This document shows positions 2,961 to 43,236 of a stretch of 64,000 bases of DNA, piece by piece. The stretch comes from Shigella phage ESh19. Under the pieces are notes generated by a model. That model made no database searches. It was not told the origin of the DNA and saw nothing but the letters and a program-made list of their open reading frames with translations. The first letter of the stretch is position 1. The number at the start of each line of letters is the position of its first letter. Both the position numbers and the translations under genes were made by a program. Where the stretch lies: sequence record ON528729; one strand, given 5' to 3'.

Positions 2961-3755
2961 TTAGTTACGTGCTTCAACATAGTTTACGTTTTCATGTGTG
3001 ATATAATCTTCTGCAAACTCTTCTGTAGTCGAATTGATATACACACTTGCATCATCACCAAACGTTACCGCTCTGTGGTGGTGACCTTGTAACGGGTGGG
3101 TAACTTGAGCGTTACTTCGATTGTACTTCTCAACCGGAGGGTAACTGGTGTGTACCTTGCCATTACGCTTCACCTTGAGGGTAACTTTATCCTTGCCTAC
3201 CACAGCAACACCATCAAAATATTGAGGCTCACTGAAGTTCTCCCAACCAGTAACAGGACTAGTCAACTGACTGTACATCTTATCTTCATAGACATACATA
3301 TATACGTCAACATCTTTCATAGTCTGATTAATAATGGACAGCACAGCCATACTATCAAGACCACCAATCCCTGCACAAATCATAGGAAGCCCAACTTTCT
3401 TAAGTTGGTTGACTTTGCAGTAATTATTCAGACGCTGCAAAGCTGCTTCTAAAGCATTGTACCGTGCATCTTTGCCAGTGATAACCTGAGTATAAAGGTT
3501 AGCAATCCGACCCTGCTTAAAACGTGCTACAGAGATGTTACCAAGCATTAGGTGCTTAGGGTTATGATTTTCACCACCTACTGTAGCATAAACCTCAGCG
3601 TCAGTTTCATAAGCTTTTGGGTAGCGTTTAGCAATTGTTGCTGCGATACCTGAACCCATCAAGTTCATGCAGTTACAACCGTGACCAATGATATCAAACT
3701 TCTTACCATCAAAGTCTTTAAAGATATCACCTTTAATAATTTTTACGATACCCAT
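2961..3755 (-). CDS. macrodomain protein, TARG1/DarG-like ADP-ribose hydrolase fold, with extra C-terminal domain
   Basis: KGDIF..DIIGHGCNCMNLMGSGIAATIAKRY matches TARG1-type macrodomain signature (catalytic Lys in KGD, G-rich phosphate loop); start re-set to ATG 3755 (MGIVKII), since track start 3812 overlaps the upstream gene and lacks an SD. Confidence 0.6.
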   Translation of the reverse strand: MGIVKIIKGDIFKDFDGKKFDIIGHGCNCMNLMGSGIAATIAKRYPKAYETDAEVYATVGGENHNPKHLMLGNISVARFKQGRIANLYTQVITGKDARYNALEAALQRLNNYCKVNQLKKVGLPMICAGIGGLDSMAVLSIINQTMKDVDVYMYVYEDKMYSQLTSPVTGWENFSEPQYFDGVAVVGKDKVTLKVKRNGKVHTSYPPVEKYNRSNAQVTHPLQGHHHRAVTFGDDASVYINSTTEEFAEDYITHENVNYVEARN

Positions 3756-3756
3756 A

Positions 3757-3957
3757 TTAGTAATGCTCCCAACGTTCGTTATCTTCAGAGGGTTTAACTC
3801 GGTTACCTTCATGGTCTACCCATAAAGCACCACAGCCTTCACAGATTACTGGCATTGCTGAACCAGCTTCAAACTCTGCTTTTGTAAAGAGACCTTTTAA
3901 GTCTCCTGTATCTTTTCCAAACATCTCAACAGAACACTTAGTGCAGAAATCAGCCAT
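3757..3957 (-). CDS. small zinc-ribbon protein (66 aa)
   Basis: CxxC ... CxxC pairs (CTKCS, CEGCG). Confidence 0.5.
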   Translation of the reverse strand: MADFCTKCSVEMFGKDTGDLKGLFTKAEFEAGSAMPVICEGCGALWVDHEGNRVKPSEDNERWEHY

Positions 3958-4909: not shown

Positions 4910-5071
4910 TCACCCATTTGCAAGAACCTCTTTAATTTGTTGGAGTAAGGCTGCTGAGGATTCTTCCCAGAGTGTTAAACCCTCTATAGAGCCTACACAA
5001 CTTTCTCCAGCTTCATTGTAACGAGAATCACCATACTCTTCAATCAGTTTAAGCAACTTTTGCTTGTCCAT
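4910..5071 (-). CDS. hypothetical protein (53 aa; track ORF 4910-5212 trimmed to internal ATG)
   Basis: ATG 5071 with SD GAGGAA 6 nt upstream, immediately after stop of 5073-5342 gene. Confidence 0.4.
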   Translation of the reverse strand: MDKQKLLKLIEEYGDSRYNEAGESCVGSIEGLTLWEESSAALLQQIKEVLANG

Positions 5072-5072
5072 G

Positions 5073-5342
5073 TTATTTCCTCGTTTTAAGGACTGCATAG
5101 ATTTCTTTAGAATCTTCCCCAAACCATGTGTAGTGATTCTCGTTGATTTCAGGATGGTTGTCAACACGTATTTTGCAATCTCTTCCAACATGTTTAAGTT
5201 GTGCAGAAACACCCTGCATAAAGATGTGACAAGTTACATCATCCATAACCGTTGGCATAATGTCAAATCTCATGTAAGTGTTACTTGGTCTTGGTAACAG
5301 AAGATAACCTTCCACAAAAAATGTTTCATTCTTCTCTGTCAT
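5073..5342 (-). CDS. hypothetical protein (89 aa)
   Basis: ORF, stop/start coupled with o-spanin gene. Confidence 0.45.
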   Translation of the reverse strand: MTEKNETFFVEGYLLLPRPSNTYMRFDIMPTVMDDVTCHIFMQGVSAQLKHVGRDCKIRVDNHPEINENHYTWFGEDSKEIYAVLKTRK

Positions 5343-5608
5343 TGCTGCTTATTCCCTAACAAAATCATATCAATTAAATTGTTTGCCTTAATAGTGCATT
5401 CATAGTAACCATCACGATAAAACTCAAGAGCACTTGCAAGGTCTTCACCTTTAGTGCCTTTAACCTCATATCGTGCTTCTTCTTGAGTGTACTTGTCACT
5501 CTCACTTACTTGGGAGTTTTTGAAGGTACTGTTCACTTTGTTCGTTGAACACCCTGACATAAGGCTCAGTAGCACAATCATTAATAAAGACTGTCTTAGT
5601 TTTTTCAT
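5339..5608 (-). CDS. putative o-spanin (outer-membrane lipoprotein, Rz1-like)
   Basis: lipoprotein signal MKKLRQSLLMIVLLSLMSGC with lipobox; gene starts inside 3' end of i-spanin gene in another frame (overlapped architecture). Confidence 0.5.
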   Translation of the reverse strand: MKKLRQSLLMIVLLSLMSGCSTNKVNSTFKNSQVSESDKYTQEEARYEVKGTKGEDLASALEFYRDGYYECTIKANNLIDMILLGNKQQ

Positions 5609-5849
5609 AGTTCAATACCTCTTTGGTGTGTTTGTTTTTAGCAAGCACATCTTTCAAATCATTTTTGTAATTGGAGCTAAGATTTGATAAACCTTCTTGA
5701 TAAGCATCTTTAGCAACACTAACAAGCTTCTGATTAGTCAACTCTTTCTCGTTAACTTGGCTAGTCTTGTAAGTATAGCCACCCCAAGCACCTACACCTA
5801 ACAAAAACATGATTACAAAAGCTGCTTGACAAAATTCTTTGAATGTCAT
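5502..5849 (-). CDS. putative i-spanin (Rz-like, N-terminal TM + coiled coil)
   Basis: single N-terminal TM (AAFVIMFLLGVGAWGG) followed by charged helical region; overlaps lipoprotein gene; SD GGAGA. Confidence 0.5.
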   Translation of the reverse strand: MTFKEFCQAAFVIMFLLGVGAWGGYTYKTSQVNEKELTNQKLVSVAKDAYQEGLSNLSSNYKNDLKDVLAKNKHTKEVLNYEKTKTVFINDCATEPYVRVFNEQSEQYLQKLPSK

Positions 5850-5868
5850 TTGTCAATCTCCTAGACTA

Positions 5869-5970
5869 TTATAAGATAAAAGGCCAAAAAGCAGGGCAAA
5901 GCATAAGTATGATACCTACCCCTACTATGAGCATTACCAATGATGGTATTATCTTGATAACTTTAATCAT
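5869..5970 (-). CDS. possible small hydrophobic peptide (33 aa)
   Basis: hand-translated MIKVIKIIPSLVMLIVGVGIILMLCPAFWPFIL; ends 19 nt upstream of i-spanin ATG; not in ORF track; sits just after a terminator so expression uncertain. Confidence 0.25.
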   Translation of the reverse strand: MIKVIKIIPSLVMLIVGVGIILMLCPAFWPFIL

Positions 5971-5995
5971 AATATACCCCTTACATAAATGAAAA

Positions 5996-6011
5996 GGCTC
6001 CCGAAGGAGCC
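5996..6011 (-). terminator. rho-independent terminator (GGCTCC-UUCG-GGAGCC + U-run on minus transcript)
   Basis: perfect 6 bp stem, UUCG tetraloop, followed by TTTTCATTT on minus strand. Confidence 0.6.
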
Positions 6012-6023
6012 TCTATAATAACT

Positions 6024-6488
6024 TTAACCAAGAACTTTCGCAAGGACATTTGCTGCCATTGTTGAGGCTTTTGAAGCAGCAGCTACGCCAGCCTTAATGG
6101 TATTGTCCTTAATCGCAGAAACCGTTGCAGTATCTGTGAAGAGGTAAGTGGTAGTTTGAGAACCACTTGTAAAGGAAAGCATAAGAGCAGTTTCCAGATT
6201 GAAAGAACGGTAAGGAGCACCGGATTGTACAATCCCTTTTGCACCTAACTCTGAAGCCATACCCATATCATAGATAGTCATCAGATTTTCTTTATGAGCA
6301 GTAGTTGAACCAACACCCTTAACGTGTTTTGTGACATTCAACATGGCACGATACTCACGAATGTTACCATCAGCTTTCACGTTTACTGCACGAAAGATTT
6401 TACCATCGAAATTACTTTTGATAATCTCACGAACTACCTGTGATTTGTTACCGGAAGCATCGATAGCTACTGTAATAATGTTTTGCAT
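6024..6488 (-). CDS. hypothetical protein (154 aa)
   Basis: ORF with terminator downstream. Confidence 0.5.
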   Translation of the reverse strand: MQNIITVAIDASGNKSQVVREIIKSNFDGKIFRAVNVKADGNIREYRAMLNVTKHVKGVGSTTAHKENLMTIYDMGMASELGAKGIVQSGAPYRSFNLETALMLSFTSGSQTTTYLFTDTATVSAIKDNTIKAGVAAASKASTMAANVLAKVLG

Positions 6489-6499
6489 GGTTTACTCTC

Positions 6500-7195
6500 T
6501 CAGTTTTTAACAAGCATTGTTTTGATGTGTGGTAAGATTCTTTCAACCTTTGCCACGTTCTTCACTGTATCTTCTATAAAGCATACTACATCATAGTAAG
6601 GTAGAATGCAAGACTGAAGCATACGAACTTTTAAACTTTCTGCACTAATCTCATTGTCACCAAATCCACGCATAAACAGTAGGAAATCACTGTCTACATT
6701 CTCATTCAGGAAAAGATGTGTGACAACTCTTTGTGATTCTCCACGAGCAGTTAAGAATCCTATATCAGCATTTCTTGATATACCACACAGGATGTTAAAA
6801 ACATATGTTGGTTTAGCTCTGCGAGAGTCTACCAAGTTAGTATACTGTGAGTAAGTGCCGTCATCTAACAGAGTTGCATTAAGTTTCTTGTCAAAGCTTG
6901 TAAGAACACCATCAATGTCTGCTAAGACCATTTTACGTTTTTCTTCCAAGTTCTTTGCAACCAAGATAAGACTATTACGACCAACATATACAGTTTTACC
7001 TGTTAGCAAATCCTGACAAGGAATCTGTGTCTTTGTTGAGTGGAAGTCTTCAAAGCTACACACAACATCTCTTGCTGTATCTGCAAAGTCAGCTTTAGCA
7101 ATATCTGACCAACTTGCAGAACTGATATCTAAATCAAGTGGCTTGATATCATAAGCATGACACAGAACCATGTCAAATTGTTTTGATTCGCTCAT
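6500..7195 (-). CDS. HAD-superfamily phosphatase-like protein (tentative)
   Basis: MVLADIDGVLT resembles HAD motif I (DxDG[TV]); located mid-protein, N-terminal domain unassigned. Confidence 0.4.
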   Translation of the reverse strand: MSESKQFDMVLCHAYDIKPLDLDISSASWSDIAKADFADTARDVVCSFEDFHSTKTQIPCQDLLTGKTVYVGRNSLILVAKNLEEKRKMVLADIDGVLTSFDKKLNATLLDDGTYSQYTNLVDSRRAKPTYVFNILCGISRNADIGFLTARGESQRVVTHLFLNENVDSDFLLFMRGFGDNEISAESLKVRMLQSCILPYYDVVCFIEDTVKNVAKVERILPHIKTMLVKN

Positions 7196-7721
7196 ATTTT
7201 ACCTTTTTAATGTTTGTTGCAAACTCACATTGAGCCAGCAGTTTCATGTTATTGTACACATCTTGAGAGTATTGTCTAGCCTTTGGAATCTTGTATTTGT
7301 AACCAGCATTATAAGAAGCTAGGACACGCTTCATAGAGTACTTTCCATCTGGGTTACCATGAACCTTAGTCCAGAATAATAGCTCCTTATGAGCCTCTTT
7401 CGCTGAGTAATGGAAGTCGCTTACTAGCTTCTTCTTAGCAACCTTTGGAGATACCTTGTTACGCTTTACAACAGTCTTCAAGTGATTTTGGAAAACACCA
7501 TAATCATGAGTCTTTTTATTTTCTAACATGACACCTAATTGTGACTCTTGTAAGGCTATAGCTGCTAAAGGGATTCCCCAACCTTTTCCCATCTGTCCTT
7601 CGCCATAGTCATATGCTTTTAACATATTAACTTTCTGGCTGATTGTAAGCTCTGGACAGTCAGACGCTGTAGCTAAATGTGCTGTAAAGAATAAGCACAA
7701 ACCTAAAACAAATTTCTTCAT
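7173..7721 (-). CDS. secreted lytic transglycosylase (SLT-domain), probable signal-peptide endolysin
   Basis: signal peptide MKKFVLGLCLFFTAHLATA; SLT motifs AIALQES and SYNAGY; start set to ATG 7721 with AGGAG SD. Confidence 0.6.
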   Translation of the reverse strand: MKKFVLGLCLFFTAHLATASDCPELTISQKVNMLKAYDYGEGQMGKGWGIPLAAIALQESQLGVMLENKKTHDYGVFQNHLKTVVKRNKVSPKVAKKKLVSDFHYSAKEAHKELLFWTKVHGNPDGKYSMKRVLASYNAGYKYKIPKARQYSQDVYNNMKLLAQCEFATNIKKVKYERIKTI

Positions 7722-7788
7722 TTGCACTCCTATTTTGTTAAACATGCAGACAATTATACACTAACCTGCACATTTTTCAAATAAAAAA

Positions 7789-7804
7789 GGCTGCCGAAGC
7801 AGCC
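7789..7804 (-). terminator. rho-independent terminator after rIIB (GGCUGC-UUCG-GCAGCC + U6)
   Basis: stem-loop followed by TTTTTT on minus strand. Confidence 0.6.
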
Positions 7805-7822
7805 CCTTTAGGAATTTACTTA

Positions 7823-8935
7823 TTAGACTTCACGTTTACGCTGAGAAATCAGTTCACCAGCAGTGCCTACAACTACGTGGAGTGCTTCTGAACCATCCCA
7901 CTCTTTGATGATTTCACGGCGACTATTTACAATCGCTGCAACTTCATAACGGGAAGCTCGCATTTTCATGTCGTTGTAGTCAGTTGGTACTGAAACAACA
8001 TCACGAGGATGAACACGAACTTTCAGGATAGTGTCACCAGAGAAGCTAGTTACATAATCCCAAGCACCAACGTGCAGACCCTGAGAGCAGGTTACATGGC
8101 GGTTATTATCAACCATCCAACGTGGCATCTCTACAATGTTACCCAAATCATTTGGAACTTTGCAGGTACGAGAGTCAAACAGTTTACCACCACGAGTTGT
8201 GACTTTCTTCCAACCGATGATATAACCTTCTTCATCAATTTCAACATCGAGGTGTGATACGAAGCCCCAAAGTTGTTCTACAGAATCTTTTGATGGGTTT
8301 TCCATCAGTTTTTCGAAGAATGCAATCAGTCGAACAAAACCATTATCACCTTTCTTCATCATATCCAGAATACGGTCTACCAGAGTTGAGCGCATCTGAA
8401 CAGCACCGTAATACAGGTTGTCGCCTTTGATGGTTACAGCACCCTGAGTGAAGTTCTCAATAGACTTGCGAATGTTCATCAGTTCAAAAGCTTTCTTGTA
8501 CTCACCTGAAACAACAGCCATTACAATATCAGTGTAGTTAGGGTGAGTTGACTCAACAATCTCAGACTCTGCACCGAAAGTCATGATAACAGAATCACCA
8601 GTAATCATGTACTCAATCTGGCTGTTATTCTGCATTGCTTCATGCAGAGCATTTACAGGTTCTGCTTTGACTGCTTCTTTAACAGCTTTTGCAACAGGCT
8701 TCTGCTTAGATACTTTCTTGGTCGCTTTAGCTTTCTTTGCAATATCTTTCAGAGTCTTTGCAGGTTTTGCTTTGGTTTTCCCTGACAGCAGCGTTGCTTC
8801 ATGACGCTCTACAGCACGACCTACCGAACGGGTTGAAGTGTTATACTTCAGAGCGATTGCAGTTTTGGTCAGTTTACCTTCTTTAACCAGTGCATAGATT
8901 TCTGCGTCGATTTGTGCTTTAGTCTTAGTAGTCAT
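7823..8935 (-). CDS. rIIB: rIIB protein
   Basis: C-terminal block CSQGLHVGAWDY..KVRVHPRDVVSVPTDYNDMKMR and central LVDRILDMMKKGDNGF match remembered T4 rIIB; directly downstream of rIIA. Confidence 0.8.
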   Translation of the reverse strand: MTTKTKAQIDAEIYALVKEGKLTKTAIALKYNTSTRSVGRAVERHEATLLSGKTKAKPAKTLKDIAKKAKATKKVSKQKPVAKAVKEAVKAEPVNALHEAMQNNSQIEYMITGDSVIMTFGAESEIVESTHPNYTDIVMAVVSGEYKKAFELMNIRKSIENFTQGAVTIKGDNLYYGAVQMRSTLVDRILDMMKKGDNGFVRLIAFFEKLMENPSKDSVEQLWGFVSHLDVEIDEEGYIIGWKKVTTRGGKLFDSRTCKVPNDLGNIVEMPRWMVDNNRHVTCSQGLHVGAWDYVTSFSGDTILKVRVHPRDVVSVPTDYNDMKMRASRYEVAAIVNSRREIIKEWDGSEALHVVVGTAGELISQRKREV

Positions 8936-9014: not shown

Positions 9015-11387
9015 TTATTCCCAACAGTTGGTATCTTCTGGGATGCTCTTAGTGTCAAAACCTAAAAACTTACCAACTTCGACGGGTGATACTTTATTCC
9101 AATCCAGATTAGAAAGCAAGAAGTTTTCTTTACGGCGTTTCTCAAAGTAATCTTTGAACTTGCTTTCAAGACGCTTCTTAGCATTATCCAGTACCTTTCT
9201 TGGCTTACAAGAACCTCTCATATTCCTGCGAATGGTATCAAGAGTGCTGGTGATATCTTTGTAAGCAACTGGTGCAGCAGTGTATGCCAAGCGTCCAAAC
9301 ATTGCTTCTATAGCCTCTTCATTCCCCTCTAAGAAGATAGTCTTCTTAAAGTCTTTACTGTACATGTGGCCTCTGGACTTACGTTTATCAGCAAACATAA
9401 AGTTTCGAGAAATCACATTACAATCAGTGATATCATGATTATTTGTCATGTACTGATATGTCAAGTAACGATGATACTCAATCCAATGAGTGTTATCAAT
9501 AAAATCTTTCAATACTTGTTCATTGACTTCTGTCCAATCTTCAGGAATCTTTTTCCAGTTGGCTTTACGGAAGACATAAACTGACTGTCCAGTTAACTCT
9601 GTCATCAACGTTGCAGCACGTTCTGGTGAACATGAGAAGATTCCACCAATCACTTCATCACTCTGTGCTTTGATATACAGTTGTGGTTCTTCAATCTCGT
9701 CAAAGTTCTCTTTAACCTCTGTATAGCGAATCATGTCGGTATTTGGACATATAAATGCTTTATACAGTTTTACAACACCACGTACAATAGTACGTTTTTC
9801 ATAGTGGTGTTCTTTAGATGACATTGTATGCACACTTAACAGACTTTTGTCAAGCATATGTAAATCTACAAACTCATCAAATTGCTGCTGACTGCTGAAC
9901 AAGAAAGCAATACCATTGTAGCGACGGAAGTTAGAGTCTTCCTGTTCACGGTCACGGCAAGCCCCACGGATAATCTGGTTTTTACCAGTTGTCTTTTCAG
10001 ACCCGTTCTTGTTTCGACGGTCATTGATAAGGAACAAGTAGTTGCTCAACTTATCTTTACTCATCGCTCCAAAGATACTAAACATTGCTGCATCTTGTGA
10101 ATAAGTCGCTGAAGTTGCCCGAATACGGTTCTCCAGACTGCTGTACTTGTAGTATGCTACAGGTTCATACAGATTACCAATATTAGGAACTGGATTACCA
10201 TCTTTATCAAGCCTCAAGTTACCCGCATCATCTTTCAAGAATGACGGAGAACCATCTGCTTCAGTTAACTGACCACGACGAATACCTAACAGTTTTTGTT
10301 CAAGCTTTTTCAAGTTCTGGCCTTGCCATTCCAGAGAATCTTGAACGTGATTAAAGATTTCACGAGCCTCTTTCCTCATGGTATCGTAAGCCTGTGCAGC
10401 ATCAATCAGAGTTGGCTTGTTAGCAATCTCTTTTACCACATCTTCTACGATTGTCTTAGTGATTTTCTTCACAGCTTCAACAATCTTAGTTTTGGTAGTC
10501 TCATTCATCTGCAATGCTTCACGAGATGCAGCAATAGCTACTGAACCAATTGGCATGTAGATGTTAACAAGGTCTACAGCACTACGGAAGAACTGAGGCA
10601 GAATGCTTGTAAACTCTGAACCAAGCAACTCACCCATTTCAACCGGATAAGCAATGTTACCCATGATTACATTGAAATGGACGCTGTTACTATTTGAGCG
10701 CCAGTTCTCTTTGTACTTCATTGCATCATAGACACCATCTTCACGAGAAATGGAAGTCATTGCTTCAAGAATGTCATAGTACTCAACATTACACTCTGGC
10801 TTAACTTTAAAGTACGAGTATACATTGCTCGCTTCTTCATGAAACTTGTTAATACGGTTATCAGATACCGCTACTCGAACAGCTAAACCATTTGGCTCTG
10901 TAGTTGGGTTAGTAGTCAACTTAGTTACTTGAGGGATACCATTCTCAAGGTAAACTGAGTATTTGTTAACTACACCATCAACATAGCTCGATACAGTGAA
11001 TGACTGAGCAATTGCAAATGGTGACTTTGAACCGATACCCATAGCACCAATGTAGTCATTTGAATCGTTCTTTGTGGATTCTCCATAGGTCATGTAAAGT
11101 TTCATAACTTTTTCATGAGTCAGCCCTGTACCAAAGTCACGAACTTCAAAGAATGGTTCAAAACGAGTTGGTAAGTGAACCAAGAAAGGTTTATCAACAT
11201 TACCAGAATCAATGTGAGCATCTACTGCGTTACATGATAACTCACGAATTACAGCACGTTCTTTATATGTGTAAACACCTGAGCTTAGAAGACTGAACAT
11301 TTCAGGTGTCATCTTAATTTGAGCCTGAGAGGTTTCCAGTGTACTTGAGCTTTTAATTACCGTTGCGTGGTCATTTACCATGCGCAT
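9015..11387 (-). CDS. rIIA: rIIA protein (GHKL ATPase-like N-terminal domain)
   Basis: N-terminal RAVIRELSCNAVDAH and DYIGAMGIGSKSPF blocks match remembered T4 rIIA / HATPase N-box and G-boxes. Confidence 0.85.
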   Translation of the reverse strand: MRMVNDHATVIKSSSTLETSQAQIKMTPEMFSLLSSGVYTYKERAVIRELSCNAVDAHIDSGNVDKPFLVHLPTRFEPFFEVRDFGTGLTHEKVMKLYMTYGESTKNDSNDYIGAMGIGSKSPFAIAQSFTVSSYVDGVVNKYSVYLENGIPQVTKLTTNPTTEPNGLAVRVAVSDNRINKFHEEASNVYSYFKVKPECNVEYYDILEAMTSISREDGVYDAMKYKENWRSNSNSVHFNVIMGNIAYPVEMGELLGSEFTSILPQFFRSAVDLVNIYMPIGSVAIAASREALQMNETTKTKIVEAVKKITKTIVEDVVKEIANKPTLIDAAQAYDTMRKEAREIFNHVQDSLEWQGQNLKKLEQKLLGIRRGQLTEADGSPSFLKDDAGNLRLDKDGNPVPNIGNLYEPVAYYKYSSLENRIRATSATYSQDAAMFSIFGAMSKDKLSNYLFLINDRRNKNGSEKTTGKNQIIRGACRDREQEDSNFRRYNGIAFLFSSQQQFDEFVDLHMLDKSLLSVHTMSSKEHHYEKRTIVRGVVKLYKAFICPNTDMIRYTEVKENFDEIEEPQLYIKAQSDEVIGGIFSCSPERAATLMTELTGQSVYVFRKANWKKIPEDWTEVNEQVLKDFIDNTHWIEYHRYLTYQYMTNNHDITDCNVISRNFMFADKRKSRGHMYSKDFKKTIFLEGNEEAIEAMFGRLAYTAAPVAYKDITSTLDTIRRNMRGSCKPRKVLDNAKKRLESKFKDYFEKRRKENFLLSNLDWNKVSPVEVGKFLGFDTKSIPEDTNCWE

Positions 11388-17316: not shown

Positions 17317-17410
17317 TTCTCTTTCCTTTCAATGTATTGTATAAAAGCCCTAACAAGAAACCTAGTAAGACAGAGCCTACTAAAGTGACTAACAAGAATG
17401 TCTTAATCAT
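17309..17410 (-). CDS. possible small single-TM peptide (33 aa)
   Basis: hand-translated MIKTFLLVTLVGSVLLGFLLGLLYNTLKGKRND; ATGA overlap with upstream gene and AATGACTAA overlap with downstream gene (translational coupling on both sides). Confidence 0.35.
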   Translation of the reverse strand: MIKTFLLVTLVGSVLLGFLLGLLYNTLKGKRND

Positions 17411-17757
17411 TCGCCATACCACCATATTGTTTGGTTGTTATCACAAACATACAGATACTCTGTCCCGATTTGCGGGACGATGATTGTAGTGTTGCCTGAG
17501 ATGACTGTCATGTAGTACATGTATTCCCTGCTTTGTGATGTTTGCTGGCAATTGTTTGCATTCATCCAAATTCTTGTTTGATAAGTATCATATACTAGAA
17601 ATCCTATCATAATTGCTAATGCAATTCCAAGGAGCCATAACCAAAATTTAGGCCAAAAGTCATAACTTAGCCTATCTTTGTACTTCATAATACCAAGAGT
17701 AATAAGCAATACTAAGCAAGCCAATGTGCAGACTGTAACATAAACCCATACGTTCAT
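17407..17757 (-). CDS. membrane protein with two predicted TM helices (116 aa)
   Basis: hydrophobic segments VWVYVTVCTLACLVLLITLGIM and FWLWLLGIALAIMIGFLVY. Confidence 0.5.
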   Translation of the reverse strand: MNVWVYVTVCTLACLVLLITLGIMKYKDRLSYDFWPKFWLWLLGIALAIMIGFLVYDTYQTRIWMNANNCQQTSQSREYMYYMTVISGNTTIIVPQIGTEYLYVCDNNQTIWWYGE

Positions 17758-20012: not shown

Positions 20013-20213
20013 CTACTTAGAAAACTTTTCAATAAGCTTTTTAAGCTTTCCACTCAAATCATGTTTGATATCTAATATCTCAAAGATAACCCATACTAGC
20101 ATAGCTCCAAATAGAGCACCTTGTTTTAAATCAGTAAACAGGCTAGTAACCATGAATGCCAGAGCAATCATCGGAGCATCTTCAACAAAACCATCCCATA
20201 AACGTTTAAGCAT
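20013..20213 (-). CDS. small membrane protein (66 aa)
   Basis: hydrophobic core MIALAFMVTSLF..LFGAMLVWVIF. Confidence 0.4.
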   Translation of the reverse strand: MLKRLWDGFVEDAPMIALAFMVTSLFTDLKQGALFGAMLVWVIFEILDIKHDLSGKLKKLIEKFSK

Positions 20214-42667: not shown

Positions 42668-43042
42668 TTATTTCTTTTTAGCATTCTGTGTATTTTGTTC
42701 GGTAATTGCTTGTAAAGCTGATACAGACTGTGCTAAGTTGTTCACACTATCTGAGAATTTATCAAGGGTTTTGGTCAACTTAGCGTTCTCCCCTTTAACG
42801 TTCTCTAACTGCACTTTCTGGTTTTCCATCCCTAACTGAAGGAGTTTCATATCAGACTGTAAATCACGAATAGCTGAATAGTTACCTTTTGAGTAACCAT
42901 CCAACTGTTGTAACTTTGTGTTGATAGAAACTTCTTGCTTTCCATCAGAGACCTGCATCGTAGTGTACATACCAATTACACTGAAAATACCTACAACGAT
43001 TGCACCAATATTATTCTTAAAAGCATCTTCAAGCCACTTCAT
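42668..43042 (-). CDS. membrane protein, N-terminal TM + coiled coil (124 aa)
   Basis: TM IGAIVVGIFSVIGMYTT then heptad-rich region. Confidence 0.5.
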   Translation of the reverse strand: MKWLEDAFKNNIGAIVVGIFSVIGMYTTMQVSDGKQEVSINTKLQQLDGYSKGNYSAIRDLQSDMKLLQLGMENQKVQLENVKGENAKLTKTLDKFSDSVNNLAQSVSALQAITEQNTQNAKKK

Positions 43043-43236
43043 TATTTCTCACCTTTAAAAGCCTTTTCCAAGGTATCTACAAATTCATCATCAATAGGTG
43101 TATCTGTTTTACTCGCAAGGTATCTTGCAAGCTTAAAGAACACTTTTTCAATCATGTATTCACTGAGAAGAGAAAAAAGAAGCTTCCAAAAGAATGCCCC
43201 AAGGTTTTTCATGAAGATTGCTAGAATGGTTGGCAT
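43042..43236 (-). CDS. small membrane-associated protein (64 aa)
   Basis: hydrophobic N-terminus ILAIFMKNLGAFFWKLLFSLL. Confidence 0.45.
   Translation of the reverse strand: MPTILAIFMKNLGAFFWKLLFSLLSEYMIEKVFFKLARYLASKTDTPIDDEFVDTLEKAFKGEK

What the first reader, a model, noticed from the sequence alone, without database searches (positions are those of the whole stretch)
5339..7721. Lysis cluster: signal-peptide lytic transglycosylase plus overlapped spanin pair, holin not evident
The SLT-domain enzyme (ES and AYNAG-type motifs) has a cleavable-looking Sec signal, implying holin-independent export or a SAR/signal-peptide endolysin. Downstream are an N-terminal-TM coiled-coil protein and a lipoprotein starting inside its 3' end in another frame, the overlapped spanin arrangement. 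No conventional holin ORF lies between them. The only candidate is a 33 aa hydrophobic ORF (5869-5970) directly upstream of the i-spanin, too short for known holins. A HAD-like protein and a 154 aa protein sit between endolysin and spanins.
Basis: partly seen in the sequence, partly recalled or inferred. Interest (0 to 1): 0.5.

Follow-up and report, generated by a model that had tools for sequence, protein, structure and literature searches.

The report
Known phage spanins beside exported transglycosylase
This stretch of a Felix O1-like (Mooglevirus) phage holds a real, already annotated spanin pair and an exported cell-wall-cutting enzyme related to the uncharacterised T4 protein Vs.1, but it is not a self-contained lysis cassette, because the phage group's lysozyme and putative holin lie elsewhere in the genome.

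Summary
The sequence features are real. On the minus strand lie an SLT-type protein with a Sec-type signal peptide (7173-7721), a HAD phosphatase-like gene, a 154-aa gene, a terminator, a 33-aa hydrophobic ORF, and an overlapped i-spanin/o-spanin pair (5502-5849 and 5339-5608). The window is about 98% identical to published Mooglevirus phages (Shigella phage KPS64, Citrobacter phage Mordin), where the spanins are already annotated.

- **Endolysin.** The SLT protein is not the endolysin. It is a homolog of phage T4 Vs.1 (PHROG 600), which occurs in about 1,900 phage genomes. All relatives also carry a soluble GH24 lysozyme, which falls in the roughly 25 kb of genome outside this window.
- **Expression.** The SLT gene has its own sigma-70-like promoter beside rIIB. 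An intrinsic terminator separates it from the spanins. T4 vs.1 is an early transcript.
- **Holin.** It has never been tested experimentally.
- **33-aa ORF.** It sits in a 122-nt insertion shared with only one other phage record, so it is not the group's holin.

Residual interest: the Vs.1 family is conserved and exported, keeps its catalytic residues, and has no known function.

The parts
7784..7809 (-). Intrinsic terminator hairpin (UUCG loop followed by a U-run) after rIIB
   Evidence: RNA fold -15.6 kcal/mol, z -3.1. A terminator is annotated at the same place in Mordin.
7753..7780 (-). Sigma-70-like promoter (TTGAAA-16-TATAAT, 11 of 12 matches) in front of the transglycosylase gene
   Evidence: Consensus scan and the sequence itself. 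A consensus match only; not tested.
7173..7721 (-). Exported Vs.1-type (GH23/SLT-fold) lytic transglycosylase, 182 aa
7665..7721 (-). Predicted Sec signal peptide (residues 1-19, cleavage after A-T-A)
   Evidence: Sequence rules applied. pLDDT is below 50 for residues 1-19. Small residues at -3 and -1 are conserved in relatives. An N-terminal hydrophobic segment is present in 138 of 158 family representatives.
6500..7195 (-). HAD/PNKP-phosphatase-like protein, 231 aa, annotated 'polynucleotide kinase' in relatives; overlaps the transglycosylase stop by 23 nt
   Evidence: PHROG 3970 at E 1.6e-127. HAD motif DIDGV at residue 93 and no P-loop. The orthologous gene in related contigs hits PF25109 HAD_PNKP.
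6024..6488 (-). 154-aa protein of unknown function, no TM segment
   Evidence: PHROG 2267, unknown function. Hydropathy.
5993..6014 (-). Intrinsic terminator hairpin between the 154-aa gene and the spanin unit
   Evidence: Terminator scan. RNA fold -14.8 kcal/mol, z -3.0, 0 of 200 shuffles as stable. Annotated as a terminator in Mordin.
5869..5970 (-). 33-aa hydrophobic ORF inside a 122-nt insertion (about 5865-5990) that is absent from Mordin and KPS64
   Evidence: Alignment. Only Escherichia phage pEC-M719-6WT.1 shares it. The 3 nucleotide differences are all synonymous third-position changes. No PHROG or Pfam hit.
5502..5849 (-). i-spanin, 115 aa: N-terminal TM helix plus periplasmic domain
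   Evidence: PHROG 1152 'Rz-like spanin' at E 5e-38. TM segment at residues 6-24. Annotated i-spanin in Mordin, KPS64 and others.
5339..5608 (-). o-spanin, 89-aa precursor: lipoprotein signal with lipobox LMSG-C20, Ser at +2; +1 frame, 107-nt overlap with the i-spanin gene
   Evidence: The lipobox and a second Cys are conserved in Felixounavirus, Hafnia and Erwinia phage orthologs. Homologs occur in 301 phage records, many annotated o-spanin.
42668..43042 (-). Putative class III holin of the phage group: 124 aa, one N-terminal TM segment and a long periplasmic coiled-coil-like tail; last gene of the tail-fibre operon
   Evidence: 97% identical to Mordin_56, annotated 'holin'. TM segment at residues 12-30. 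PHROG 4038, unknown function. Never tested experimentally.
43042..43236 (-). 64-aa ORF with a hydrophobic N-terminus abutting the holin candidate
   Evidence: 98% identical to Mordin_57. PHROG 402, unknown function.

Best explanation
The interval is part of the early/middle gene region of a Mooglevirus (Ounavirinae, Felix O1-like) phage. It is not a lysis cassette.

Two transcription units lie head to tail.

Unit 1 starts at a sigma-70-like promoter just after the rIIB terminator. It encodes (a) a Vs.1-type lytic transglycosylase, (b) a PNKP-like HAD phosphatase and (c) a 154-aa protein of unknown function, and it ends at a strong hairpin terminator.

Inferred action of the transglycosylase:
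- The Sec system exports it and signal peptidase I removes residues 1-19.
- It acts on peptidoglycan in the periplasm without needing a holin, from early or mid infection.
- This does not lyse the cell. I consider an accessory wall-remodelling role most likely, one that conditions the sacculus for faster or more complete lysis. That step is speculative.

Unit 2 follows the terminator and holds the two-component spanin.
- The i-spanin is anchored in the inner membrane by its N-terminal helix.
- The o-spanin is a lipoprotein sent to the outer membrane.
- By established spanin biology, the two bind across the periplasm and fuse the two membranes once the wall has been degraded.

The wall is degraded by a separate soluble GH24 lysozyme, encoded about 12 kb beyond the window start in relatives. 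A holin releases it; the best candidate is at 42668-43042.

The 33-aa ORF is a probably real but strain-specific small membrane-peptide gene carried on a 122-nt insertion.
For: Identity of the phage: 96-98% nucleotide identity to KPS64, Sf16, Mordin and Michonne.

Spanins: already annotated in those records. Their defining features are verified here.

Transglycosylase:
- It belongs to the Vs.1 family.
- tblastn finds it in 1,928 phage records, including T4-like phages that have their own endolysin e.
- 623 representatives are found in the deep profile search.
- Catalytic residues are conserved 158 of 158 and an N-terminal hydrophobic segment is present in 138 of 158.
- The fold is that of GH23 transglycosylases.

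Separate endolysin: a GH24 lysozyme with no signal peptide is present in 252 relatives at 80% identity or more. It is absent from the window by tblastn, and its locus maps to the uncovered part of the genome.

Literature:
[quoted passage not shown] - Felix O1: lysin gp35 is a PF00959 protein, with no holin-lysin cassette (PMC3185647).

Transcription signals: promoter and two hairpin terminators.

Timing: T4 vs.1 gives early RNA and middle protein and is detected by mass spectrometry (PMC9697503 supplement).

Synteny: rIIB next to the transglycosylase is kept in distant relatives, while the number of genes between it and the spanins varies from 2 to about 7. In T4, vs.1 and the spanins are about 73 kb apart.
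Against: - No experiment on this protein or on T4 Vs.1 was found, so export, signal-peptide cleavage, enzymatic activity and biological role are all inferred.
- SignalP and LipoP could not be run.
- The GH24 lysozyme cannot be seen in this genome itself because that region lies outside the window. Its presence is inferred from 252 relatives.
- The holin of this phage group has never been demonstrated. Whichard et al. list five candidates, so a non-canonical lysis scheme is not formally excluded.
- In Mordin there is no room for a promoter between the terminator and the spanins. Some read-through co-transcription of the transglycosylase and the spanins is therefore likely, which leaves a functional link possible.
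Confidence: 0.85

Rival explanations
1. The signal-peptide SLT enzyme is the phage's endolysin, exported by Sec without a holin as in Oenococcus phage fOg44 Lys44 or the SAR endolysins. Together with the adjacent spanins it forms the lysis cassette.
For: - A muralytic fold with an intact catalytic Glu.
- A Sec-type N-terminus.
- The same strand as the spanins and about 1.3 kb upstream of them.
- Some GenBank records label it 'putative lysin'.
Against: - A canonical soluble GH24 endolysin is present in all 252 close relatives, and the literature names it as the endolysin.
- The homolog Vs.1 coexists with endolysin e in T4-like phages. By established T4 genetics (my own knowledge), e-defective T4 does not lyse despite having vs.1.
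- T4 vs.1 is expressed early.
- The gene has its own early-type promoter and a terminator stands before the spanins.
- The N-terminus has an AXA cleavage site and a strongly hydrophobic core, unlike a Gly/Ala-rich uncleaved SAR domain.
- Linkage to the spanins is not conserved outside Ounavirinae.
Confidence: 0.04
2. The exported transglycosylase is a specialised 'space-making' enzyme like EtgA, IagB, IpgF or VirB1. It opens local gaps in peptidoglycan so that a phage envelope-spanning assembly can form. The best candidate is the i-spanin/o-spanin bridge encoded downstream.
For: - It has the same architecture as the specialised transglycosylases: a signal peptide plus a single SLT domain of about 150 aa.
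- Synteny with the spanins holds across Ounavirinae.
- In T4, both vs.1 and the spanin genes are early transcripts.
Against: - There is no linkage with the spanins in T4.
- The number of intervening genes is variable and a terminator intervenes.
- Spanins of lambda and most other phages work without such an enzyme (established knowledge).
- There is no direct evidence.
Confidence: 0.08
3. The protein is not exported. The N-terminal hydrophobic stretch is an uncleaved membrane anchor, or the protein is a virion or ejection protein used to breach the wall at infection.
Against: - The n-h-c signal layout with small -3 and -1 residues is conserved.
- The protein is small and single-domain.
- No gene from the genome end that holds the rIIB-adjacent transglycosylase is among the Felix O1 structural proteins identified by mass spectrometry: gp23, 36, 49, 53-55, 57-59, 63, 64, 67-69, 73, 74 and 77. 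I did not establish its Felix O1 gp number.
- It has an early-type promoter.
Confidence: 0.03

Closest known systems
Spanin pair of Mooglevirus and Felixounavirus phages (e.g. Citrobacter phage Mordin gp134/gp133, Shigella phage KPS64 gp134/gp133)
   Same: Orthologous genes in the same order and with the same overlap. The region is 96-98% identical at the nucleotide level.
   Different: Essentially nothing in the spanins themselves. The window has an extra 122-nt insertion with a 33-aa ORF just upstream of the i-spanin. Many GenBank records start the o-spanin at an internal GTG and so lose the lipobox.
Phage T4 Vs.1 (NP_049725, P13311; PHROG 600)
   Same: It is homologous over the whole length (33% identity, E 1e-14). 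Both are about 180 aa, have an N-terminal signal-like segment and carry the E-S, G-x-F/M-Q and S-Y-N-x-G motifs. Both have only a marginal Pfam SLT match, as reported for vs.1 in 2006 (PMC1524935). Both lie in an early gene region.
   Different: The neighbours differ: regB and vs in T4, rIIB and a PNKP-like gene here. The Ounavirinae clade has a conserved Cys22/Cys165 pair that T4 Vs.1 lacks. The function of Vs.1 itself is unknown, so the homology gives a family name rather than a function.
T4 PseT.3/PseT.2 and lambda Rz/Rz1 two-component spanins
   Same: The parts match: an N-terminally anchored inner-membrane protein plus an outer-membrane lipoprotein. As in T4, the spanin genes are linked to a pseT-like (PNKP) gene.
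   Different: There is no detectable sequence similarity to T4 PseT.3 or PseT.2. The architecture here is overlapped, whereas T4 is separated and lambda is embedded. The mature o-spanin has no proline, unlike proline-rich lambda Rz1 (my own knowledge).
Specialised Sec-exported lytic transglycosylases of secretion systems (EtgA, IagB, IpgF, VirB1) and housekeeping family 1 transglycosylases (Slt70, MltC, MltE, MltF)
   Different: Sequence similarity is too low for profile searches against PDB sequences to detect. This protein is phage-encoded and has no known partner machine.
Signal-peptide and SAR endolysins (fOg44 Lys44; P1 Lyz, phage 21 R)
   Same: A muralytic enzyme that reaches the periplasm through the Sec system without a holin.
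   Different: Those enzymes are the sole lysis muralytic enzyme of their phage and sit in late lysis cassettes, in the SAR cases usually with a pinholin. Here a separate soluble GH24 endolysin exists, the gene is early-type, and the N-terminus looks cleavable rather than SAR-like.

Membership tests
Two-component spanin, overlapped architecture | i-spanin: a type II inner-membrane protein with one N-terminal TM helix and a periplasmic helical domain | tested here: met
   Hydropathy peak at residues 6-24. PHROG 1152 'Rz-like spanin' at E 5e-38 over the full length.
Two-component spanin, overlapped architecture | o-spanin: a small outer-membrane lipoprotein with a signal peptidase II lipobox, Cys at +1 and no Asp at +2 | tested here: met
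   MKKLRQSLLMIVLLSLMSG-C20-S. The sequence fits the PROSITE PS51257 pattern on inspection. The lipobox is conserved in orthologs down to 34% identity. LipoP was not available.
Two-component spanin, overlapped architecture | The o-spanin gene starts inside the i-spanin gene in the +1 frame and extends beyond its stop | tested here: met
   Frame offset 1 and a 107-nt overlap; o-spanin stop at 5339 against i-spanin stop at 5502.
Two-component spanin, overlapped architecture | The two proteins interact through their C-termini and are needed for outer-membrane disruption (complementation of lambda Rz/Rz1) | not testable with these tools
   This needs genetics. One periplasmic Cys in each protein (i-spanin C92, o-spanin C71) is available for disulfide links.
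Family 1 lytic transglycosylase / GH23 (Pfam SLT, PF01464) | Catalytic Glu in an E-S motif, plus the G-L-M-Q-like and A-Y-N-A-G motifs | tested here: met
   E59-S60, G75-x-F-Q78 and S136-Y-N-A-G140. Glu is present in 158 of 158, Ser in 153 of 158 and Tyr137 in 158 of 158 representatives.
Family 1 lytic transglycosylase / GH23 (Pfam SLT, PF01464) | Score above the Pfam gathering threshold | tested here: not met
   15.6 bits against a 21.3-bit cut-off for the window protein. 9 of 10 relatives match at E 0.05 or better, the best at 2.6e-6. Two relatives carry precomputed PF01464 hits.
Family 1 lytic transglycosylase / GH23 (Pfam SLT, PF01464) | Goose-lysozyme-like (GH23) fold | tested here: met
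Family 1 lytic transglycosylase / GH23 (Pfam SLT, PF01464) | Non-hydrolytic cleavage that yields 1,6-anhydroMurNAc products | not testable with these tools
   This needs muropeptide analysis. A muramidase (hydrolase) activity, as in goose-type lysozymes, is not excluded.
T4 Vs.1 family (PHROG 600) | Full-length sequence homology to Vs.1 and PHROG 600 | tested here: met
   PHROG 600 at E 6.1e-57, profile positions 1-176 of 178. BLASTP to T4 Vs.1 gives E 1e-14.
Phage endolysin (canonical, SAR or signal-peptide type) | It is the muralytic enzyme responsible for lysis; no other dedicated endolysin is encoded | tested here: not met
   A GH24 soluble lysozyme is present in all 252 close relatives and is annotated as the endolysin. 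This is an inference for this genome, because the locus lies outside the window.
Phage endolysin (canonical, SAR or signal-peptide type) | Late expression and/or linkage to a holin or pinholin | tested here: not met
   A sigma-70-like promoter beside rIIB. The T4 ortholog gives early RNA. No TM protein is adjacent except the non-conserved 33-aa ORF.
Holin (for the 33-aa ORF 5869-5970) | Conserved in phages that share the same lysis system; at least one TM segment plus a charged C-terminal tail; usually 60 aa or more | tested here: not met
   One TM-length hydrophobic stretch is present. The ORF is found in only 1 other record out of 50,697, it ends in ...FWPFIL with no charged tail, and it has no family hit.
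Class III holin (for 42668-43042) | A single N-terminal TM segment with a large periplasmic C-terminal domain; late expression; lethal hole formation on triggering | tested here: inconclusive
   The topology fits (TM segment 12-30). The position at the end of the tail-fibre operon fits. It is annotated 'holin' in Mordin on these grounds. It has no similarity to any known holin family (PHROG 4038, unknown function), and its function has not been tested.

The most novel reading that the evidence does not exclude
The Vs.1-type exported transglycosylase has a specific, still undiscovered role in envelope biology during infection. It is conserved with intact catalytic residues in about 1,900 sequenced phages of Gram-negative hosts, T4 among them, and it is made early.

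Possible roles:
- pre-conditioning the sacculus so that the holin, endolysin and spanins act abruptly;
- clearing peptidoglycan for spanin bridges;
- modifying the wall against superinfection or lysis from without.

Its conserved position beside rIIB, and its position upstream of the spanins in Ounavirinae, would then be meaningful.
Probability: 0.15. Interest if true: 0.5.

Novelty: already known. Interest (0 to 1): 0.15.

Why it matters
For this window it matters little. The genes are orthologs of already annotated genes in published Mooglevirus genomes, and the scattered layout of lysis genes in Felix O1-like phages is in the literature.

Two practical points follow:
- The 'putative lysin' label on the Vs.1-like gene in several GenBank records should not be read as 'the endolysin', for example when choosing enzymes for enzybiotic work.
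- Many records start the o-spanin at an internal GTG, which removes its lipobox.

The broader open question is what an early, Sec-exported, catalytically intact transglycosylase does in T4-like and Felix O1-like infections. A simple knockout in T4 could test this.

Tried and rejected
- **NCBIfam.** No family was found for any of the six proteins.
- **Literature on T4 vs.1.** Only Nolan et al. 2006 and an omics table turned up. Two searches failed on term length. One returned clinical 'vs.1' noise and one returned nothing. Miller et al. 2003 is not held.
- **Lys68.** I had recalled that Salmonella endolysin Lys68 came from a Felix O1-like phage. The paper shows that phage phi68 resembles SETP3, so I dropped that line.
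- **T4 spanin homology.** No similarity was found between the window spanins and T4 PseT.3/PseT.2.
- **33-aa ORF as holin.** Rejected because it lies in a rare insertion.
17407-17757 (116 aa, two TM-like segments) and 20013-20213 (66 aa) hit only unknown-function PHROGs. The first has an insignificant holin hit at E 0.036. They are neither supported nor excluded.


Full report
**What the window is.** A megablast of 5000-8000 finds 257 phage records. The best matches are 96-98% identical over 93-96% of the query: Shigella phages KPS64, Sf16 and Sf17, and Citrobacter phages Mordin and Michonne. All belong to genus Mooglevirus, subfamily Ounavirinae, the Felix O1-like myoviruses. Aligning Mordin to the window shows which part of the genome it covers. 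The window spans Mordin positions about 11050 down to 1, and then 89596 down to about 35635. About 24.6 kb of the roughly 89.6-kb genome therefore lies outside it.

**Checking the observation.** The minus strand carries these features in order:
- rIIA (9015-11387) and rIIB (7823-8935)
- an SLT-like ORF (7173-7745 mechanically)
- a HAD-like ORF (6500-7195)
- a 154-aa ORF (6024-6488)
- a 33-aa hydrophobic ORF (5869-5970)
- a 115-aa ORF with an N-terminal TM segment (5502-5849)
- an 89-aa ORF (5339-5608) that starts inside the 115-aa ORF

It has an AGGAG 6 nt upstream, and the earlier ATG at 7745 lies at the very edge of a promoter-like site (TTGAAA-16-TATAAT, 7780-7753). Orthologs are annotated at 182 aa.

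The N-terminus is MKKFVLGLCLFFTAHLATA|SDC. It has two lysines, a hydrophobic core and Ala at -3 and -1. AlphaFold gives pLDDT below 50 for residues 1-19 and a confident domain after about residue 27.

The o-spanin ORF is in the +1 frame relative to the i-spanin and overlaps it by 107 nt. Its N-terminus is MKKLRQSLLMIVLLSLMSG-C20-ST, a textbook lipoprotein signal. Orthologs from Felixounavirus, a Hafnia phage and an Erwinia Kolesnikvirus share as little as 34-42% identity. They still keep the lipobox (TMSGC, SMSGC, TTASC) and a second Cys near the C-terminus. The one limit is that SignalP and LipoP were not available.

**The spanins.** The 115-aa protein matches PHROG 1152 'Rz-like spanin' at E 5e-38. 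It is annotated i-spanin, and its partner o-spanin, in Mordin, KPS64, Michonne and many other records. This part of the finding is correct and already known. There is no detectable similarity to T4 PseT.3/PseT.2. In T4 too, however, the spanin genes sit next to the polynucleotide kinase gene pseT.

**The SLT-like protein.**
- Pfam SLT is a sub-threshold hit for this sequence (E 0.012, 15.6 against 21.3 bits).
- 9 of 10 aligned relatives hit SLT, the best at 2.6e-6.
- It matches PHROG 600 ('unknown function') at E 6e-57.
- A tblastn against 50,697 phage records finds homologs in 1,928 of them. Most are T4-like phages of Escherichia, Klebsiella, Vibrio, Aeromonas and Acinetobacter, plus the Ounavirinae.
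- In T4 the homolog is vs.1, between regB and vs, at 33% identity and E 1e-14 over the full length.
- A profile search of 1.84 billion representative proteins finds 623 members at E 0.001 or better. Nearly all are 160-200 aa and align from the N-terminus.
- In 158 representatives the catalytic Glu, Tyr137 and Tyr151 are invariant, the E-S serine is present in 153, and 138 have an N-terminal hydrophobic segment.

The only statement on function I found is from Nolan et al. 2006. [quoted passage not shown] In a T4 time-course study, vs.1 is classed as early RNA and middle protein and is detected by mass spectrometry (PMC9697503 supplement).

**Why it is not the endolysin.**
- Mordin encodes a 154-aa 'lysozyme' (Mordin_93). 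It matches PF00959 Phage_lysozyme at E 6.6e-39 and has no signal sequence.
- tblastn finds this protein at 80% identity or more in 252 records. That is essentially the same set of phages that shares the region studied here. It includes KPS64 at 69561-70022, about 17 kb from that phage's spanins.
- The gene is absent from the window (best tblastn E 1.6) because its locus lies in the uncovered 24.6 kb.
- Michonne is described the same way, with a 'putative class-III holin'.
- The Felix O1 genome paper names the PF00959 protein gp35 as the lysin and notes that holin-lysin cassettes are absent.
- Vs.1 homologs coexist with the dedicated endolysin e in T4-like phages. By established T4 genetics (my own knowledge), e mutants fail to lyse although vs.1 is intact.

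**Transcription layout.** A hairpin with a UUCG loop and a U-run follows rIIB (7784-7809; -15.6 kcal/mol, z -3.1). A second follows the 154-aa gene (5993-6014; -14.8 kcal/mol, 0 of 200 shuffles as stable). Both are annotated as terminators in Mordin.

The transglycosylase, the PNKP-like gene and the 154-aa gene therefore form one unit behind a near-consensus sigma-70-like promoter. The spanins lie beyond the terminator. In Mordin only 53 nt separate the 154-aa stop from the i-spanin start. The spanins are therefore probably read by terminator read-through or from a promoter further upstream.

Across Ounavirinae and more distant metagenomic relatives, the transglycosylase stays next to rIIB. 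The number of genes between it and the spanins varies from two to about seven. In T4 the two loci are about 73 kb apart. The proximity seen here is synteny within one subfamily. It is not a conserved functional module.

**The holin question.** No TM protein lies between the transglycosylase and the spanins except the 33-aa ORF.
- That ORF sits in a 122-nt insertion absent from Mordin and KPS64. Both DNA and protein searches find it in only one other record, Escherichia phage pEC-M719-6WT.1.
- The two copies differ at three nucleotides, all synonymous third-position changes. It is therefore probably a real small gene, but it cannot be the holin of this phage group.
- The ORF annotated 'holin' in Mordin (Mordin_56) is 97% identical to window 42668-43042. 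It is the last gene of the tail-fibre operon. It has one TM segment at residues 12-30 and a long coiled-coil-like tail.
- It belongs to PHROG 4038 (unknown function) and resembles no known holin family.
- Whichard et al. could only list five candidates for Felix O1. 'Holin not proven' therefore remains a fair statement for the whole group, but it is a known gap and not a new anomaly.

**Most likely mechanism.**
- *Shown:* gene identities, order, motifs, fold and conservation.
- *Inferred:* the transglycosylase is made early from a host-type promoter, exported by Sec and cleaved after Ala19. In this clade it may be stabilised by a Cys22-Cys165 disulfide; the pair is invariant in the 10 closest relatives but absent in T4. 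It cuts glycan strands in the periplasm without causing lysis.
- *From established lysis biology:* late in infection the holin permeabilises the inner membrane, the soluble GH24 lysozyme destroys the wall, and the i-spanin/o-spanin complex fuses the inner and outer membranes.
- *Undetermined:* the specific contribution of the exported transglycosylase. I favour an accessory wall-loosening role, and I give low probability to a dedicated spanin-helper or superinfection-related role.

**Verdict.** The reading as a lysis cluster with a signal-peptide endolysin is not supported. Everything here has orthologs in published, annotated genomes. Interest is low, apart from the long-standing unknown function of the Vs.1 family.

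Noticed in passing
window 5339-5608 (-); L002 2139-2336; L010 3073-3270: Many GenBank relatives (KPS64, GEC_vB_BS and others) annotate the o-spanin as 65 aa, starting at an internal GTG (Val25 of the 89-aa ORF). That start removes the signal peptide and lipobox. The 89-aa form used in Mordin keeps a lipobox that is conserved as far as Hafnia and Erwinia phages.
   Followed up: partly
window 5865-5990 (33-aa ORF 5869-5970, -): A 122-nt insertion between the terminator and the i-spanin ribosome-binding site carries a 33-aa one-TM peptide gene with its own AAGGGG ribosome-binding site. It is shared only with Escherichia phage pEC-M719-6WT.1, which has a further 50-aa ORF at the same spot. The three nucleotide differences between the two copies are all synonymous.
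   Followed up: yes
window 6500-7195 (-): The gene called 'polynucleotide kinase' in relatives has the HAD motif DIDGV at residue 93 but no P-loop kinase motif. Orthologs hit only PF25109 HAD_PNKP and Acid_phosphat_B. It may be a phosphatase-only relative of T4 PseT, in which case the kinase label is doubtful.
   Followed up: partly
window 2961-3812 (-): The macro-domain protein is a homolog of T4 Tk.4 (40% identity, E 2e-17). Together with the transglycosylase/Vs.1 match, this echoes the T4 gene block regB-vs.1-vs-tk.4 and suggests an early-gene block shared by T4-like and Felix O1-like phages.
   Followed up: partly
window 43042-43236 (-): A 64-aa ORF with a hydrophobic or amphipathic N-terminus (PHROG 402, unknown function). 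Its stop overlaps the start of the putative holin by one base. It could be a holin partner or antiholin.
   Followed up: no
window 17407-17757 (-) and 20013-20213 (-): Two small membrane-protein ORFs sit in the nucleotide-metabolism region next to nrdD and a glutaredoxin-like gene: 116 aa with two TM-like segments, and 66 aa. They hit only unknown-function PHROGs (8826 and 4532). They cannot be excluded as alternative holin candidates.
   Followed up: partly
L007 6003-7782 (T4 134002-135781) versus window 5339-7195: In T4 the spanin genes pseT.3 and pseT.2 lie immediately upstream of pseT.1 and pseT. Here a PNKP-like gene lies two genes upstream of the spanins. The linkage between PNKP and spanin genes recurs in both phage groups, although the spanins show no sequence similarity.
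   Followed up: partly
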